Origin: a virus
IMG/VR virus record: IMGVR_UViG_3300044695_007092
Coordinates: 1-64,000 of that record
Strand: one strand, 5' to 3'
Length of the DNA: 64,000 bases
Below are positions 1-62,343 of the stretch, piece after piece; the stretch's first letter is position 1, and every line of letters starts with the position of its first letter. Both the position numbers and the translations under genes were made by a program. The notes under the pieces are model-generated. The model was not told where the DNA came from. It was given only the letters and a program-made list of their open reading frames with translations, and made no database searches.

Positions 1-255
1 GGCCCTCAAGGCCCTGAAGGACCGCAAGGAAATCAAGGCCCATTTGGCCCTCAAGGCCCTGAAGGACCGCAAGGAAATCAAGGCCCATTTGGCCCTCAAG
101 GCCCTGAAGGACCGCAAGGCCCACAAGGAAATCAAGGCCCATTTGGCCCTCAAGGCCCTGAAGGCCCGCAAGGAAATCAAGGCCCATTTGGCCCTCAAGG
201 CCCTGAAGGCCCTCAAGGGCCTCAAGGGCCTCAAGGTAATCAAGGCGTAACTGGC
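1..255 (+). repeat. Tandem ~45-bp repeat encoding Gly-X-Y collagen triplets
   Basis: The unit ggccctcaaggccctgaaggaccgcaaggaaatcaaggcccattt recurs about 4-5 times with 9-bp indels. Confidence 0.95.
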
Positions 256-1044
256 CCCGTTGCAGGATCAGCAAATCAGGTAGTTTATAAAGATGGAAGC
301 AATGCTGCTGCTGGCTCTTCGAGTTTTACTTTTGATGGCACAACAGTAGCTGTTCCTATACTTTCAGTAACTAGAACTGCCGGCACAGGAACACAAAATC
401 CTTCAGTAACTGTTACTGCTCCTGCTCACACAGCTTTGACTGCTTCTACTGAATCTAGCGATCTAAATATAAACCTAGCAAGGACAGCACAATTTGCGAC
501 TGGTGCTTTAACTCTTCAAAGGGCAGTTAGAATACAAGCCCCAACTTATAGTTTTGTTGGTGCAAGCACAGTAACTAATGCTGCAACAATTCAAATAGAT
601 TCTGCTCCTGCTGCCGGTAGTAATGCGACTATAACCAATGCTATAGCATTAAGAGTTCTAACAGGCACTACTACTGGTGTTGGTATAGTCATACAAGGTG
701 CAACTTCTCAAACTGGAGATTTGTTCGAGGTTAAAAATAACTCAGGAACAGATTTATTTTCTTTAAATAATAATGGCACTTTATTATTAAACCCATACGG
801 AACATCTACTGGTCAAACTAATGAAATACGCTTTTTAGAACTAGCAGCTAACGGAACAAACTATGTAGGGTTTAAAGCTGGGGACAGCGTAGCTGCTAAT
901 GTAGTGTGGACTTTGCCAACTGCTGATGGTACTAATGGGCAGTTTCTGTCTACAAACGGAAGTAGTGTTTTATCTTGGGGTACGCCAACTTCTAAGTCAG
1001 CAGGGAGCGATATTTTCTTAGCTAACAATTTTGGAGGTTTATAA
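1..1044 (+). CDS. Collagen-like tail fibre protein, 5'-truncated by window edge
   Basis: Frame 1 reads [15 protein letters not shown] repeats and runs open into the 436..1044 ORF. The C-terminus has typical fibre motifs ([22 protein letters not shown]). Confidence 0.85.
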
Positions 1045-2704: not shown

Positions 2705-3526
2705 ATGCCAGTAGATCCAGATTGCGATACAGGTGATTGCGGAGACGAGCCACCAGACGCGGACCCAGGCTGTTGCGGGGCATTAACATGCGAAGAAAAC
2801 GAGACTTGTTGTAATAACACCACCTGCGTTCTAACTTCTTCATTTCAGACAGATTCAAACAATTGCGGCGGGTGTGGTATTGTGTGCGATCCAGGCGAGA
2901 CCTGCGTAGACGGAGTATGCACGAGTGAAAACTTAGGGTGCTGTCAAACTTATACATGCACTGAGAGCGGGTGGGTGCTTACCAGCAGAGTGACAACTTC
3001 AGTAAACTGTTCAACTGGAAGCTCAAGTTGCTGCGATCCTGGAAATGTAACCTGCGTTGGTGCCGAGTATAAAGTTTGGAACGGCTCAGGGCCATGCCCT
3101 GGGTGCTGTTATGATTATATATGTGACGGGGAAGGCATGTTAACGTTTACTGGAAAGAGCCCAGCCGCTAGCTCTGCGTGTGAAGATTCTTATTGTTACT
3201 ATAATTGTTACGGCGATTTAGCGTGTCGAGGCCAGACCAGCAACCTATACTATCCTGAGGAGACGTGCCCATCCGCTCTAGGAGCTCCATTAAATAAAGA
3301 AATAGTTGTGTCGGATACACCTTGCGTAGACGGAGAATGTGAAGAGCACGTAGCCACTTGGATGGCGGAGCCTATAGGCGAGCCCAATGAAGACGGCCTT
3401 TACAAAGTTAAATGGATATTGTTAGATGACTGCCCTGGAGTGTGCTGTAGTGATCAGCCTACGCAGCCTGAGTTTGTAAAGACATCGACACTTGTTGACG
3501 CACCTTGTAAGTGCGGCTGTAACTAG
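2705..3526 (+). CDS. Cys-rich acidic protein with Stig1-like repeat motif
   Basis: 37 Cys in 273 aa. Contains the DSNNCGGCGIVCDPGETCVDGVC motif. AAGGAG RBS. Confidence 0.7.
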   Translation: MPVDPDCDTGDCGDEPPDADPGCCGALTCEENETCCNNTTCVLTSSFQTDSNNCGGCGIVCDPGETCVDGVCTSENLGCCQTYTCTESGWVLTSRVTTSVNCSTGSSSCCDPGNVTCVGAEYKVWNGSGPCPGCCYDYICDGEGMLTFTGKSPAASSACEDSYCYYNCYGDLACRGQTSNLYYPEETCPSALGAPLNKEIVVSDTPCVDGECEEHVATWMAEPIGEPNEDGLYKVKWILLDDCPGVCCSDQPTQPEFVKTSTLVDAPCKCGCN

Positions 3527-6605: not shown

Positions 6606-6608
6606 CTT

Positions 6609-6634
6609 AATTCGACCCATTTTTGCGTCATAAT
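6609..6634 (+). promoter_or_regulatory. Putative phage promoter or cassette-start motif AATTCG-N10-GCGTCATAAT (copy 1)
   Basis: The same motif with identical spacing occurs at 59551-59575. Both copies are intergenic and sit at the start of a cassette. Confidence 0.6.
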
Positions 6635-6837: not shown

Positions 6838-6910
6838 GGGTCGCTAGTTTAATTGGAAAAACCGGGGACTCATAACCCCCAGTATCCTGGTTCGAATCCA
6901 GGGCGGCCCC
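6838..6910 (+). tRNA. tRNA with CAU anticodon (elongator Met or Ile2), atypical
   Basis: Acceptor GGGTCGC/GCGGCCC, anticodon loop CTCATAA, T arm CCTGG-TTCGAAT-CCAGG. G1-C72 pair argues against an initiator. No encoded CCA. Confidence 0.85.
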
Positions 6911-56691: not shown

Positions 56692-57333
56692 ATGAAATTA
56701 AATGTAGAGAAGTACCCAGAAGAACTAGGCGAAAAGGTTTCTAATGGAAGAGTAGAAGGTACTAAGACCGTACTGGGATTAGACCTTGGAACAAACTGTG
56801 GTTACTCTTATTGCTTCATACATAATAAGCTTGGTGATAAGCCTAGAATATATGCGGGGCAGCTAGACCTATCAGCCGGCCCTTATGACTCTGGAGCTAT
56901 AAGGTTTCTAAGGCTAAGGCATTTCTTATCAGCAATTAAGCCCGATCTTATAGCTTATGAAGATGTAAGATATACTCCTTCGGTAAAGGGGTTTATGAGC
57001 GCAGGTGCTCTACTAGCAAGAGCTGCTCCAGCTTGCGAGTGGTTCGGTGCATTAAAGGCTACCGTAAGCACATGGGCAGAAGAAAACGGAGTTCCGTGCA
57101 CAGGTATACCTATTGGATCAATAAAGAAAAGGGCCACAGGAAAGGGCAATGCTAATAAGGTAGATATCATCAAGGCCTGTAATAATGAATTCGGATTTGA
57201 TTTTGATCACGAAGGCTATGAGTCCTCTGGTGCAGACAACGTAGCCGATTCTGTATACGTATGCACTCTTGCAGTAGAGTCATATGGTTTAGGGTTTAAC
57301 CCAGAAAGAGAGAATGAGGATGCACGTCAATAA
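56692..57333 (+). CDS. RuvC-like Holliday junction resolvase
   Basis: LGLDLGT, AYEDV, IKKRATGKGNANK and DNVADS motifs. Confidence 0.85.
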   Translation: MKLNVEKYPEELGEKVSNGRVEGTKTVLGLDLGTNCGYSYCFIHNKLGDKPRIYAGQLDLSAGPYDSGAIRFLRLRHFLSAIKPDLIAYEDVRYTPSVKGFMSAGALLARAAPACEWFGALKATVSTWAEENGVPCTGIPIGSIKKRATGKGNANKVDIIKACNNEFGFDFDHEGYESSGADNVADSVYVCTLAVESYGLGFNPERENEDARQ

Positions 57334-59531: not shown

Positions 59532-59549
59532 AGACAATTCTTAGCCCTA

Positions 59550-59575
59550 AATTCGGGCCAAAAACGCGTCATAAT
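59550..59575 (+). promoter_or_regulatory. Putative phage promoter or cassette-start motif AATTCG-N10-GCGTCATAAT (copy 2)
   Basis: aattcg-ggccaaaaac-gcgtcataat, versus aattcg-acccattttt-gcgtcataat at 6609. Confidence 0.6.
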
Positions 59576-59885: not shown

Positions 59886-60611
59886 ATGCTGCAGATAGAA
59901 GGAATTATCGAAAAGGGCGCTCTCGTTGAAGGCGCCGCTAAGACCCTATTTGGGGGTAAGTTTGACAATAACAGTTGGATGATGTGGTTACCCGACGACG
60001 GTCGGGAATTAACATTTAAAAGCGGAGATATATACTACGAAGAAGGGCTGCTAGCCCTAATAAGATATGGTAATAAAACCATATCGGTTTGGAAGGTAAT
60101 AGATGGGGTCTTAGAGCCCCAGGTGGTGTTCATTCCAGCCAAGTTCGGGTTTGGAAAAAACAGAATAATTCCCACTGCCTCGGCGTACGCCGAAGTAGTG
60201 ATGCAAAACGCAGAAGCTTCTGACATCTTGGATTTCCTTCCCCTTCCTAGAAGGGTGCTAGGCTTCCGAGAGGCAGATCTGCCAGACGTGGCGGATTTAG
60301 ATCAAAAGGCCTTGGCCGGCATGGCTAGATCTAGCGACCCCTCCAAAATGGAGGCGGCGTACAAAAAGTTCAAGAGGTCTGGGGACCTGGTATTCGTACC
60401 AGAAAGTCTGCTACCAGCGGACTTTGTGGCTGATTACAATCAGCCATGGTGCCTCGACTTAGAGGGTTTTATAGACAGCGAGCGGTACCCAGTACCGCAG
60501 CTTGTATACCAAACCTCCCTGACGAAACACGGCCTCCATTACAGCGCCGCCACAAATGGCGCCCGTAAGGTAGGAGGAGGCCCAAAAACAAGGAAGAACG
60601 GACGCCCTTGA
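59886..60611 (+). CDS. Hypothetical protein immediately upstream of the structured RNA
   Basis: 241 aa, AGGAGGAG RBS, basic C-terminal tail. Confidence 0.7.
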   Translation: MLQIEGIIEKGALVEGAAKTLFGGKFDNNSWMMWLPDDGRELTFKSGDIYYEEGLLALIRYGNKTISVWKVIDGVLEPQVVFIPAKFGFGKNRIIPTASAYAEVVMQNAEASDILDFLPLPRRVLGFREADLPDVADLDQKALAGMARSSDPSKMEAAYKKFKRSGDLVFVPESLLPADFVADYNQPWCLDLEGFIDSERYPVPQLVYQTSLTKHGLHYSAATNGARKVGGGPKTRKNGRP

Positions 60612-61099
60612 TCAAGGCGGCTCGTTCTTTCAAGTTGGTGGTAGAGCGCACTCAACTCTACCGCGACGTCTAGGCCCGTTAAGACTATGTAATTCCTACT
60701 GCTAGCAAAAACGTATTAATACCTGCACTTGTAATAGGCGCCGTCTAGGTAGCCTATTAATTGCACGCGTATTTCATGGGATTATGCGACGCAAGGGTGT
60801 TAGATTCAGACGGGTCGAAACAAAAGCTTGCCCTCACAAGCAAGTGCGTCAGAGTGGCCTAAACGGTACCCCACTCTTGTATATACCGGGTAACTGTTCG
60901 GTCTCAGGACCATGCACTCCCAGGAGTAGCGGGTTGTCTGGGCGGGTTACTGCCCCAAGAATATTGGGGAAAAAGAAGAGCGTTGTGCGGCTACAGCCGT
61001 GTTGCCATTAAATCCCCAGGGAGAGAATGGGATGACGGGTCTGTGCGGGCGTTCTTCTCCAACCAGGGCCGGGCCTAGCAATAGGCCTGGCTTTCTTTT
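60612..61099 (+). ncRNA. Putative large (~480-nt) structured non-coding RNA
   Basis: Nearly continuous hairpins with many G-U pairs, long-range 5'/3' complementarity, and an intrinsic terminator at 61068-61099. Confidence 0.55.
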
Positions 61100-61112
61100 A
61101 GGAGGAAGCTTT

Positions 61113-61298
61113 ATGCAAGGGATTCTGCAAGCAGAAGTTATCAGCGAGTGGCTTATCGACAAAGCTGTCGAAAGACAGTGTGTGTTGATGGCCCTTAAAG
61201 AGGCAGATAAAAAGGGCTGTGGAGACTTCAGAGTCTTCACGGCAACTGGAAATAATAATAATATAGAAGTGGTATACGTAAAAGTTTACCACGCATAA
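61113..61298 (+). CDS. Small hypothetical protein (61 aa)
   Basis: ATG 61113 after AGGAGG, just past the terminator. Confidence 0.55.
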   Translation: MQGILQAEVISEWLIDKAVERQCVLMALKEADKKGCGDFRVFTATGNNNNIEVVYVKVYHA

Positions 61299-61303
61299 TA
61301 CAT

Positions 61304-61353
61304 AAATCACAGTTAGCCTAGTTATGGCTATCTGTGATTTTTTTTTAGCTATT
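61304..61353 (+). terminator. Hairpin followed by TTTTTTTTTAGCTATT (end of cassette 2)
   Basis: aaatcacag.tagcc-tagttat-ggcta.ctgtgattt-ttttttagctatt. Confidence 0.65.
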
Positions 61354-61584
61354 AGATATCTTTCTTTAATATTTCGTCTATTAAAAGTGGTATGCCGTAG
61401 CCCATCATATATACTGAGCATACAATTAAAAACATATGATAGTAGATGTTTGTAAACAAGAAGTACCCTATGTGATCTAGGATACACAACATATCTTCTT
61501 CTAATCTCATGTTGCTTATTGCTCCAATAAACAGTAGAAAGTTACATTATAAGATATTGTCTCCATGTAAGCGAAAGGATAATC

Positions 61585-62343
61585 ATGAGCGGATACAGCG
61601 GATTGCAGTCAGTCACAAGCGGTTCAAACATAGACCCAAACAGAAAGACCACTAAAATAGTAGTAGACCCACACGAGCTGGACTCGTTTACTATAGATCT
61701 GAACGCTATGAAAGCTTCTGCTAACAAGTACTCTTTAAAGAATGATACCAGTGCCGAGCTAAGGTCTTTAAATGAGACTGATAGATCAAAAGTAATATCT
61801 AATAACCTAAGAAAGCTATCAAGTGATAAAGCAAATGAGGCTCCACCTAATCTAGGTACTGTTGCTGCTACCCTAGACGGAGCTAACCACGTACATCCTG
61901 CCGCCGCCTTACCTGAATCAGCTGTAACTCCTCCATCTGTAAGGGTTTACTTTGATATGCCAGGACTGGCCACACTGAATTCAAAATACCACGGTGTAAC
62001 TGTTGTGCCAGGGTACTTAGTACTTACAACAGACCTAAGATACGCCGGATCAGGCGAGTTCTACCCTTTTACAAGTAAGCTTGCTAATGAGTCATCAGCC
62101 TATATTGGCGTGATGGTAGAAGGCATAGATAGCCTATTTCTAATCAGGCCGCCAGCTATTACTCACAAGTTTGGGCCCTATGAACACTGCCTAGTTCCAA
62201 TAAGCCAAGAAAAAGATCTACCAGAAGAGATTAAGAAGAACGTAGACGAGGTAGATAAAGAAGTGGAGACGTCTCCACAAACAGGTTATGATAATTATGA
62301 AGAATACACCAGCCCGCCTAGTGCCGATAGCGGTGTACTTTAA
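61585..62343 (+). CDS. Hypothetical protein upstream of the portal
   Basis: 252 aa, AAGGA RBS. Confidence 0.65.
   Translation: MSGYSGLQSVTSGSNIDPNRKTTKIVVDPHELDSFTIDLNAMKASANKYSLKNDTSAELRSLNETDRSKVISNNLRKLSSDKANEAPPNLGTVAATLDGANHVHPAAALPESAVTPPSVRVYFDMPGLATLNSKYHGVTVVPGYLVLTTDLRYAGSGEFYPFTSKLANESSAYIGVMVEGIDSLFLIRPPAITHKFGPYEHCLVPISQEKDLPEEIKKNVDEVDKEVETSPQTGYDNYEEYTSPPSADSGVL

What the first reader, a model, noticed from the sequence alone, without database searches (positions are those of the whole stretch)
60612..61099. ~480-nt highly structured RNA with mutually exclusive long-range pairings and a terminator/antiterminator choice
Seen: consecutive stems ggtagag/ctctacc; aatac-tgca-taataggc/gcctatta-tgca-gtatt; gacgca..tgcgtc enclosing gcttg/caagc; agagtgg/ccactct; ggtc/gacc; ccccaa/ttgggg; and a long gaagagcgtt..ccgt..ccatt/aatgg..acgg..ggcgttcttc arm. 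There are two long-range options. 60634-60649 (gttggtggtagagcgc) can pair with 61049-61063. 60670-60678 (ctaggcccg) can pair with 61070-61078, which is the 5' arm of the terminator gccgggccta-gcaa-taggcctggc-tttctttt. I see no tmRNA, RNase P or group I/II intron signatures. Inference: a new large phage ncRNA class, or a switch controlling read-through into the 61-aa gene.
Basis: partly seen in the sequence, partly recalled or inferred. Interest (0 to 1): 0.8.

Follow-up and report, generated by a model that had tools for sequence, protein, structure and literature searches.

The report
New structured RNA in lake phages

Summary
The + strand folds far better than shuffles (z -4.2) and the - strand does not (z -0.45). 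No Rfam family matches the window or five relatives.

A counterpart of 300-640 nt sits at the same place, between p241 and a 61-aa gene, in every related lake-phage record that has the 61-aa gene. It is absent from five related records that lack that gene. Overall sequence is not alignable between lineages, but a core is shared:
- a hairpin with a conserved loop and fully compensated stems (60851-60877);
- a 12-bp bulged long-range helix, GUUCG/UGRGC plus a covarying outer part (60889-60900 with 60939-60951). It pairs in 95% of cells, 5 of 12 pairs change on both sides, and 0 of 500 shuffles reach its covariation score.

In two near-identical phages the RNA core is 96-98% identical while neighbouring genes are 50-86%. 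An RNA-library contig covers only 60859-61015.

The antiterminator pairing (60670-78 with 61070-78) is real but found only in this phage. It costs 13 kcal/mol. In one lineage a strong terminator and a separate promoter lie between the RNA and the gene.

Verdict: a new, clade-restricted structured ncRNA of unknown function, probably linked to p61. The scan has not met it on other DNA.

The parts
59548..59575 (+). Phage promoter-like motif TAAATT-N16-CATAAT. It is the likely start of the transcription unit p81-p241-RNA-p61.
   Evidence: This is one of only two exact matches to TWAATT-N16-CATAAT in the 64 kb; the other lies before tRNA-Met at 6607. The same motif precedes the p61-like gene in L007/L010. 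Its function as a promoter is inferred.
59886..60611 (+). p241, an upstream gene of unknown function. Its last codons form the 5' arm of the RNA's first hairpin.
   Evidence: ORF list. No Pfam or PHROG family. The family is small. The AF2 model has pLDDT 80 and no fold match.
60592..60631 (+). Boundary hairpin GGAAGAACGG...UCGUUCUUUC, with the p241 stop codon UGA (60609-60611) in its loop.
   Evidence: Folds. Hairpins of unrelated sequence also hold the stop codon in the loop in L002/L018/L020 and L003, and one overlaps the stop in L007.
60638..60850 (+). Lineage-specific 5' domain: hairpin 60638-60664; closing helix 60665-69 with 60846-50; helix 60673-80 with 60809-16; long hairpin 60714-60778; hairpin 60826-60845.
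   Evidence: MFE and constrained folds. The 60673-80/60809-16 pairing has probability 0.99. There are no alignable counterparts in other lineages, so covariation gives no support here.
60851..60877 (+). Conserved-loop hairpin: stem AGAGUGG/CCACUCU, loop CCUAAACGGUACC.
   Evidence: The stems are fully compensated in three lineages (AGAGUGG/CCACUCU, CUUAGGGG/CUCCUAAG, AAUGCU/AGCAUU) around the loop C(C/A)(U/C)AAA(C/U)(G/C)GU. Pairing probability 0.70.
60864..60888 (+). Possible H-type pseudoknot: loop CGGUA 60864-68 with UACCG 60884-88.
   Evidence: There is a 5-bp complement in the window. Only 3-4 bp are possible in the other lineages. Tentative.
60889..60951 (+). Core long-range helix: 60889-60895 with 60945-60951 (variable, covarying), 60896-60900 GUUCG with 60939-60943 UGGGC (conserved), and G60944 bulged. 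It encloses small hairpins at 60901-60938.
   Evidence: 95-96% of cells are paired, 5 of 12 pairs change on both sides, and the covariation score is 0.58-0.60 against 0.19-0.21 for shuffles (0 of 500 reach it); slid controls reach at most 0.25. Enforcing the helix costs 0.1-0.2 kcal/mol. It is the only such motif in the 75-kb genome on either strand.
60953..61058 (+). Lineage-specific 3' domain: hairpin CCCCAA/UUGGGG 60953-60969 and the long arm 60974-61058.
   Evidence: Folds. There is no counterpart in other lineages.
61068..61099 (+). Intrinsic terminator: GCCGGGCCUA-GCAA-UAGGCCUGGC followed by UUUCUUUU.
   Evidence: Sequence. Stem probability 0.99. L003 and L007/L010 have terminators at the same place. 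The scan did not list this hairpin.
61113..61298 (+). p61, a 61-aa gene with AGGAGG at 61100-61105. It is always found together with the RNA.
   Evidence: 21 protein clusters. AF2 model with pLDDT 84 and a beta-alpha-beta-beta layout, with no fold or family match. Co-occurrence with the RNA.
61309..61355 (+). Terminator at the end of the unit (hairpin plus T9) followed by AGCTATTAG.
   Evidence: Sequence. Motif search. Conserved in L002.

Best explanation
The stretch is a gene for a stable, structured non-coding RNA read from the + strand. It is about 520 nt here and runs from roughly 60592 to 61099.

Shown:
- It has no conserved ORF.
- It folds strand-specifically.
- Its core is kept by compensatory changes in four phage lineages. 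The core is a hairpin with a conserved loop, directly followed by a 12-bp bulged helix with the invariant, wobble-rich inner part GUUCG/UGRGC.
- The peripheral arms are replaced freely between lineages.
- It is present exactly where the p61 gene is present.

Inferred:
- It is transcribed with p81 and p241 from the phage promoter at 59548.
- Its 5' limit is the hairpin that carries the p241 stop codon in its loop, a likely processing or insulating site.
- Its 3' end is made by the intrinsic terminator at 61068-61099.
- Leakage through that terminator, or a separate promoter in one lineage, expresses p61.
- The invariant helix with its bulged G and two fixed G-U pairs is a recognition platform for a protein. 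The small p61 protein is the most plausible partner, so RNA and p61 would act together as a ribonucleoprotein, or p61 would be titrated by the RNA. The setting is a fast-evolving accessory cassette of the phage.

The cellular target is unknown.
For: - Fold: z -4.19 on + against -0.45 on -. Relatives fold at z -3.6, -4.7 and -7.7.
- Known families: no Rfam family at E <= 10 in the window or in five relatives.
- Synteny: an ORF-less gap of 326-642 nt lies between p241 and p61 homologues in L002, L003, L007, L010, L018 and L020.
- Core helix: covariation; inner hairpins; loop hairpin.
- Specificity: there is one motif in the 75-kb genome and none outside the RNA loci in 175 kb of relatives. Pattern scans of IMG/VR and of 185,579 prokaryote genomes found only this clade plus hits with no flanking helix (L055's 7 bp lies inside a coding gene).
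- Constraint: between L007 and L010 the RNA core is 96-98% identical, against 50-79% for p81/p241 and 75-86% for p61, with flanks at 96-99%. In a variant lake population the listed differences fall in the p241 coding part and none in 60702-61083.
- Expression hint: the only contig of an RNA-seq library that lies on the 1.3 kb covers 60859-61015.
- Link with p61: model R2 hits all 5 records that have p61 and none of 5 related records without it, one of them 92% complete.
- Independence from p61 translation: in L007/L010 a U8 terminator and a promoter motif separate the RNA from p61.
Against: - There are only about 7 distinct sequences in 4 lineages, so just one long helix, one hairpin and two small hairpins have real covariation. 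About 80% of the window's own fold rests on thermodynamics alone.
- The core helix has an ensemble probability of only 0.04 in the window.
- A model built from two lineages (R1) did not find the window or L003. Homology of the window's copy therefore rests on synteny, shared motifs and model R2, which was trained with the window's copy included.
- p61 is not basic and has no recognisable RNA-binding fold, so the RNA-p61 partnership is inferred from co-occurrence only.
- DNA carried over in the RNA library cannot be excluded.
- No transcript ends have been mapped.
Confidence: 0.6

Rival explanations
1. A cis-acting leader or attenuator of p61. The conserved core senses a ligand or protein and sets how many polymerases pass the terminator at 61068-61099 into the 61-aa gene.
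For: - The RNA always lies directly upstream of a p61-family gene and is absent where p61 is absent.
- In the window, L002 and L003 the 3' hairpin is followed within 15-25 nt by a Shine-Dalgarno sequence and ATG.
- In L020 the core helix itself is followed by a U-rich run.
- The window has a 9-nt complement to the terminator arm, and only 11 of 500 shuffles do as well.
Against: - The antiterminator is absent in the three other lineages.
- It costs 13 kcal/mol, and its 5' partner is already paired with probability 0.99.
- In L007/L010 a U8 terminator and the phage promoter motif lie between the RNA and the gene.
- A length of 300-640 nt with freely exchanged arms is unlike known leaders.
Confidence: 0.2
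2. The conserved bulged helix is a reusable 3'-end module, meaning a specialised terminator, a processing site or an mRNA stabiliser recognised by a phage or host factor. The long RNA is then mainly an elaborate 3' untranslated tail of the p241 message.
For: - A second, stand-alone copy in the L007/L010 phages sits 13 nt after the stop of a 167-aa gene. It has a 13-bp outer helix and a U-rich tail.
- The L020 copy is followed by UUUUAUUUU.
- The RNA begins in a hairpin that overlaps the p241 stop codon.
Against: - In the window, L003 and L007 the helix is internal. It is followed by further structured domains and a separate canonical terminator.
- Related phages without the RNA end p241 with an ordinary terminator.
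- A tail function does not explain the co-occurrence with p61.
Confidence: 0.1
3. A DNA-level element, such as a replication origin or packaging site next to the replication module, rather than an RNA.
For: The stretch lies at the end of the replication and recombination gene block, upstream of an AT-rich stretch at 61300-61580 with 30-34% GC.
Against: - The fold signal is on one strand only.
- The conserved helix contains two invariant G-U pairs, which would be A-C mismatches on the other strand.
- There are no iterons or tandem repeats.
- The stretch ends in a transcription terminator.
Confidence: 0.04
4. A protein-coding or decayed coding region, for example ORF 60784..61011 of 75 aa.
For: An ATG-started 75-codon frame exists.
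Against: - The frame has no tblastn counterpart in any related locus.
- The relatives' gaps hold no + strand ORF of 40 aa or more at a matching place.
- The conserved parts follow base-pairing rather than a reading frame.
Confidence: 0.03

Closest known systems
Large ornate bacterial and phage ncRNAs of unknown function (GOLLD, ROOL, OLE, raiA; Rfam)
   Same: It is several hundred nucleotides long and phage-borne. GOLLD is likewise known from lake metagenomes and phages (title and abstract of 10.1101/2024.12.08.627333, listed). It has a conserved core with variable peripheral arms, no coding capacity and no known function.
   Different: It matches none of their covariance models even at E <= 10. 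It is shorter than GOLLD. It is restricted to one small phage clade. It is tied to a small protein gene rather than to tRNAs.
Transcription-attenuating leaders and riboswitches with a terminator/antiterminator choice
   Same: A structured RNA ends in an intrinsic terminator directly ahead of a gene.
   Different: The alternative pairing is not conserved and is energetically poor. One lineage has its own promoter after the terminator. The RNA is far larger than known leaders.
Autoregulatory RNA operators bound by the product of the adjacent gene (ribosomal-protein leaders, phage T4 translational operators; from general knowledge)
   Same: A conserved, wobble- and bulge-containing helix lies next to the gene of a small protein and is always inherited with it.
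   Different: No binding has been shown. p61 is near-neutral and has no known RNA-binding fold. The RNA carries much more structure than an operator needs.
Type III toxin-antitoxin antitoxin RNAs (ToxI-like)
   Same: An RNA, then a terminator, then a protein gene in one unit, on a mobile or variable island of phage-host conflict.
   Different: There are no tandem repeats at all. The protein has 61 aa, not the ~170-aa endoribonuclease, and has no PADLOC-type or Pfam relationship; Pfam was tested, PADLOC was not.

Membership tests
Any Rfam 15 family (including ROOL, GOLLD, OLE, HEARO, raiA, tmRNA, RNase P, group I/II introns, known ribozymes and riboswitches) | A match to the family covariance model at its gathering score | tested here: not met
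   Across the whole window, only tRNA-Met at 6838 passes. On 60300-61500 with relaxed filters and E <= 10, there are only three chance-level hits outside or at the edge of the RNA. Five related loci gave nothing in the RNA. ARAGORN found no tmRNA.
Structured non-coding RNA gene (generic) | Strand-specific thermodynamic stability above shuffled controls | tested here: met
   z -4.19 on + against -0.45 on -. Relatives fold at z -3.6 to -7.7.
Structured non-coding RNA gene (generic) | Base pairs kept by compensatory changes among homologues | tested here: met
   This holds for the core only. The long-range helix is covered, the two inner hairpins and the loop hairpin. The window's peripheral domains could not be tested because no close relatives were retrievable.
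Structured non-coding RNA gene (generic) | A discrete transcript | tested here: inconclusive
   One 157-nt contig from an RNA-seq library covers 60859-61015 and nothing else of the 1.3 kb. Contigs show neither ends nor strand, and DNA carry-over is possible.
Terminator/antiterminator attenuator or riboswitch | An intrinsic terminator ahead of the regulated gene | tested here: met
   61068-61091 stem plus UUUCUUUU, with stem probability 0.99.
Terminator/antiterminator attenuator or riboswitch | A conserved, competitive alternative pairing that disrupts the terminator | tested here: not met
   The 9-nt complement occurs in the window only. In L002, L003 and L007 the best complement is 4-5 nt, which is chance level. 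Forcing it costs +13 kcal/mol and its probability is about 0.
Terminator/antiterminator attenuator or riboswitch | The RNA and the regulated gene share one transcript in all members | tested here: not met
   L007/L010 carry a U8 terminator followed by TTAATT-N16-CATAAT between the RNA and the p61-like gene. This is a sequence inference, not a transcript map.
Type III antitoxin RNA | Tandem direct repeats processed by the adjacent toxin | tested here: not met
   Tandem Repeats Finder returned 0 rows on 60400-61500 at minimum score 30.

The most novel reading that the evidence does not exclude
The RNA and p61 form a previously unknown phage ribonucleoprotein, or an RNA decoy with its handler. 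It would be carried in a hypervariable accessory island and act on a host function such as a defence system or the RNA-processing or translation machinery. The invariant GUUCG/UGRGC bulged helix, which also occurs as a stand-alone copy in some of these phages, would be its recognition signature.
Probability: 0.25. Interest if true: 0.75.

Novelty: new member of a known kind. Interest (0 to 1): 0.6.

Why it matters
Structured non-coding RNAs longer than about 300 nt with no known function are rare, and the few solved so far turned out to have unusual architectures or chemistry. This one comes from uncultured jumbo-type lake phages, whose gene content is almost wholly unannotated. It is the best-conserved element of a fast-evolving accessory cassette, and it is strictly coupled to a tiny protein of unknown fold. 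That gives a concrete two-component RNA-plus-protein system to test. It also gives a short signature for finding more copies: GUUCG, then 38-117 nt, then UGRGC-G, with complementary flanks.

Tried and rejected
- BLASTN of 60500-61300 against 50,697 phage records found no match.
- Pfam and PHROGs gave nothing for the ten neighbouring proteins except a RuvC-like resolvase at 56692. Pfam on the 21 p61 relatives gave nothing.
- Fold searches with the p61 and p241 models gave no match above Z 4.5 or below Foldseek E 0.08. The protein atlas gave no usable lead.
- Model R1, built from two lineages, found only its own training sequences, even with filters off. It was too narrow, so this is not evidence against homology.
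- MAFFT of the whole gaps misaligned the lineages. An apparent shared UGAUGC motif proved to be coincidental.
- I considered a local GUUC/GAAC hairpin as the partner of the GUUCGG motif. I dropped it in favour of the long-range helix, which is the only pairing present in all lineages.
The Logan and ENA contigs encoding P0004-P0021, including the window's only close relative P0004, could not be fetched.
- Laid runs gave no variation inside the RNA, and so no population-level covariation.
- Exact-pattern scans of IMG/VR and of GTDB genomes added no new member. The one IMG/VR extra, L026, lies inside a levivirus-like replicase ORF. The one GTDB hit with a flanking helix, L055, lies inside a coding gene.
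- The supplements of PMC10690425, a catalogue of about 10,000 phage RNA candidates of 29-151 nt, are not held, so overlap could not be checked.
- No complex prediction was run, because the tool takes no RNA.

Full report
**Setting.** The window is the first 64 kb of a 75-kb IMG/VR virus record that is estimated to be 36% complete. It comes from lake water: 19 DNA runs of lake or unspecified metagenomes hold the stretch. Nearly all genes lie on the + strand. Upstream of the finding lies a replication and recombination block with an SbcC-like protein, helicases, DnaB, DNA polymerase, a UvsX-like protein and a RuvC-like protein. The finding occupies the ORF-less gap between a 241-aa gene (p241, 59886-60611) and a 61-aa gene (p61, 61113-61298). 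Neither protein, nor any of the other eight neighbours tested bar the RuvC-like protein at 56692, has a Pfam or PHROG family.

**Checking the observation.**
- The + strand folds at -185.4 kcal/mol against -161.5 +/- 5.7 for shuffles (z -4.19).
- The - strand is no better than shuffles (z -0.45). The signal therefore belongs to a + strand RNA, not to the DNA.
- GC content is 47-57% here against about 40-45% in most of the surrounding region. This enrichment begins inside p241, and also covers p81 (51-52%).
- No Rfam family matches at gathering scores or at E <= 10 with relaxed filters.
- ARAGORN sees no tmRNA.
- There are no tandem repeats.

**Relatives.** The gene downstream of the unit (61585-62343) recovers ten related viral loci. 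The p61 family has 21 protein clusters in public data. Further loci came from viral and metagenome contigs.

An ORF-less, structured gap lies between the p241 and p61 homologues in these loci:
- L002, 326 nt
- L018 (identical to L019), 375 nt
- L020
- L003 (identical to L022), 642 nt
- L007 and L010, about 480-500 nt

These gaps fold at z -3.6, -4.7 and -7.7. L004-L006 and L008-L009 lack both the gap and p61, and there the p241 homologue ends in an ordinary terminator.

By BLASTN the gaps fall into four lineages that cannot be aligned with each other: A is the window; B is L002, L018 and L020; C is L003; D is L007 and L010.

**The shared core.** Reading the lineages side by side shows one element in all of them. 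It is GUUCG, then 38-117 nt, then UG(A/G)GC. A bulged G follows, and the two motifs are flanked by 6-8 nt that are complementary within each lineage but differ between lineages:
- window: GGUAACU/GGUUACU
- B: GCCCCU/GGGGGC
- C: GAGAAGGU/AUCUUCUC, with a second tandem copy ACGCC/GGCGU
- D: GUCGGGU/ACCCGAU

On an alignment whose ends are in register (A13), 95.8% of cells pair and 5 of 12 pairs change on both sides. The covariation score is 0.60 against 0.205 +/- 0.044 for shuffles, and 0 of 500 shuffles reach it. Partners slid by one to three columns reach at most 0.25. With two further copies added, the figures are 95.0% and 0.58.

The inner five pairs are nearly invariant (three invariant pairs: G-C, U-G, C-G; U-A/G varies and is unpaired in the two added copies; then an invariant G-U). 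G-U pairs again mark the + strand. In the window the helix is 60889-60900 with 60939-60951. Enforcing it costs only 0.1-0.2 kcal/mol, although its ensemble probability is only 0.04.

In B, C1 and D the helix closes a three-way junction, G-CUA(A)-[hairpin]-(U)GAACA-[hairpin]-RG. Both hairpins covary between B and D. The window's interior instead resembles the second copy in L003 (GUUCGGYCUCAGG...UGUCUGGGCGG).

Directly 5' of the helix, A, B and C have a hairpin with the loop C(C/A)(U/C)AAA(C/U)(G/C)GU and fully compensated stems. In the window this is 60851-60877. Its loop can pair with the linker just downstream (CGGUA with UACCG in the window). Support from the other lineages is only 3-4 bp, so I rate this pseudoknot as tentative.

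**Specificity.**
- The motif occurs once in the whole 75-kb genome.
- In 175 kb of related loci it occurs nowhere outside the RNA. However, a loose version of it turns up about 0.5 times per 75 kb of shuffled sequence, so position and helix length matter.
- Exact-pattern scans of IMG/VR returned only this clade plus one chance hit inside a levivirus-like replicase gene.
- A scan of 185,579 prokaryote genomes returned 29 hits, none credible: 28 have at most 4 bp of flanking helix, and the one with 7 bp (L055) lies inside a coding gene.
- Model R2, built from all lineages, finds one copy in the window's record, one in L002's record and two tandem copies in L003's record.
- R2 also finds an additional stand-alone copy elsewhere in each of the two D-lineage phages. 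This copy was not in the training set (E 8e-6 and 4e-3). It has a 13-bp outer helix and a U-rich tail directly after a 167-aa gene.
- R2 finds nothing in five related records that lack p61, one of them 92% complete.

**Constraint and expression.**
- L007 and L010 are 96-99% identical in their flanks but only 50-79% in p81/p241 and 75-86% in p61. The RNA core between them is 96-98% identical. A milder version of this pattern holds for L002 against L018.
- In lineage B one hairpin carries a 47-nt insertion or a replaced tip, while the rest of the RNA is nearly invariant. This is the pattern of a modular RNA with exchangeable peripheral arms.
- In a divergent lake population (run X11), the listed differences fall at 60338-60530 in the p241 coding part. 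The contig covering 60702-61083 has none.
- One RNA-seq library from an estuary holds a single 157-nt contig on the 1.3-kb stretch, at 60859-61015, inside the core. This is a hint of an abundant RNA, not proof.

**Boundaries and transcription.**
- TWAATT-N16-CATAAT matches the window exactly only twice: at 6607, before tRNA-Met, and at 59548, before p81. This agrees with earlier notes of this scan on "cassettes".
- The unit ends in a hairpin plus T9 followed by AGCTATTAG at 61309-61355.
- The RNA starts in a hairpin whose 5' arm is the end of the p241 coding sequence. Its loop holds the stop codon (60592-60631). Hairpins of unrelated sequence do the same in B and C, and one overlaps the stop in D. 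I infer a processing or insulating site.
- The RNA ends in an intrinsic terminator in A, C and D.

**The proposed switch.** The 9-nt complement between 60670-78 and the terminator's 5' arm is real. It has no counterpart in B, C or D. It costs 13 kcal/mol, and its 5' segment is already paired with 60809-16 at probability 0.99. In D the RNA is followed by a U8 terminator and then the promoter motif ahead of the p61-like gene. A conserved terminator/antiterminator mechanism is therefore not supported. A lineage-specific one cannot be excluded.

**What it most likely is.** It is a stand-alone structured ncRNA whose conserved, wobble-rich bulged helix is a recognition platform. The strict co-occurrence with p61 makes p61 the leading candidate partner. 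p61 has a confident beta-alpha-beta-beta model (pLDDT 84) with no known relatives. It is not basic, so this link is inferred from co-occurrence alone and has not been shown. The position in a hypervariable accessory island suggests a role in phage-host conflict or takeover, which is speculation. Rival readings are scored separately: a leader of p61, a 3'-end module of p241, a DNA element, and a coding remnant.

**Limits.**
- There are few sequences.
- About four fifths of the window's own fold is therefore untested by comparison.
- The scan has noted this same stretch twice in this genome but has not met it on other DNA.

Noticed in passing
window 1-236: A 9-nt period repeat, GGCCCTCAA, runs for about 26 copies (Gly-Pro-Gln triplets) inside the open-ended ORF 1..1044. 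This is a collagen-like repeat protein, possibly a fibre. Model R1 gave spurious hits here.
   Followed up: partly
window 6607-6634 and 59548-59575; L007 about 3390-3417: The phage-specific promoter-like motif TWAATT-N16-CATAAT matches exactly before the tRNA-Met unit and before the p81-p241-RNA-p61 unit. It also lies between the RNA and the p61-like gene in L007/L010. Units end in a T-run followed by AGCTATTAG.
   Followed up: partly
L007 2100-3700 against L010: There is a hypervariable island. The p81, p241 and p61 genes are 50-86% identical between two phages whose flanks are 96-99% identical, which suggests diversifying selection or cassette exchange.
   Followed up: partly
L063 1497-1580 (record of L007) and L064 (record of L010): A stand-alone second copy of the GUUCG/UGNGC bulged helix lies directly after a 167-aa gene. 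It has a 13-bp outer helix and a U-rich tail.
   Followed up: partly
L063 1600-2060: About 460 nt of strongly G-rich, imperfect 5-nt and 10-nt period repeats (GGCGA/AGGCG) follow that element, with only overlapping, untested ORF calls on both strands. Unexplained.
   Followed up: no
L018 about 2195-2241 and L020 about 135-190: One hairpin of the lineage-B RNA carries a 47-nt insertion in L018 and a replaced tip in L020, while the rest of the RNA is nearly invariant.
   Followed up: partly
window 61031-61298: A public gene call (P0004, 86 aa, 80% identical to p61) starts inside the RNA's 3' arm and reads through the terminator. It is most likely an over-extended call of p61, but it shows that a close relative of the window's RNA exists in Logan assemblies.
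   Followed up: partly
L026: A 4-kb contig filed among DNA viruses has three genes of 496, 117 and 555 aa. This looks like an ssRNA levivirus layout. It matched the search pattern by chance.
   Followed up: no
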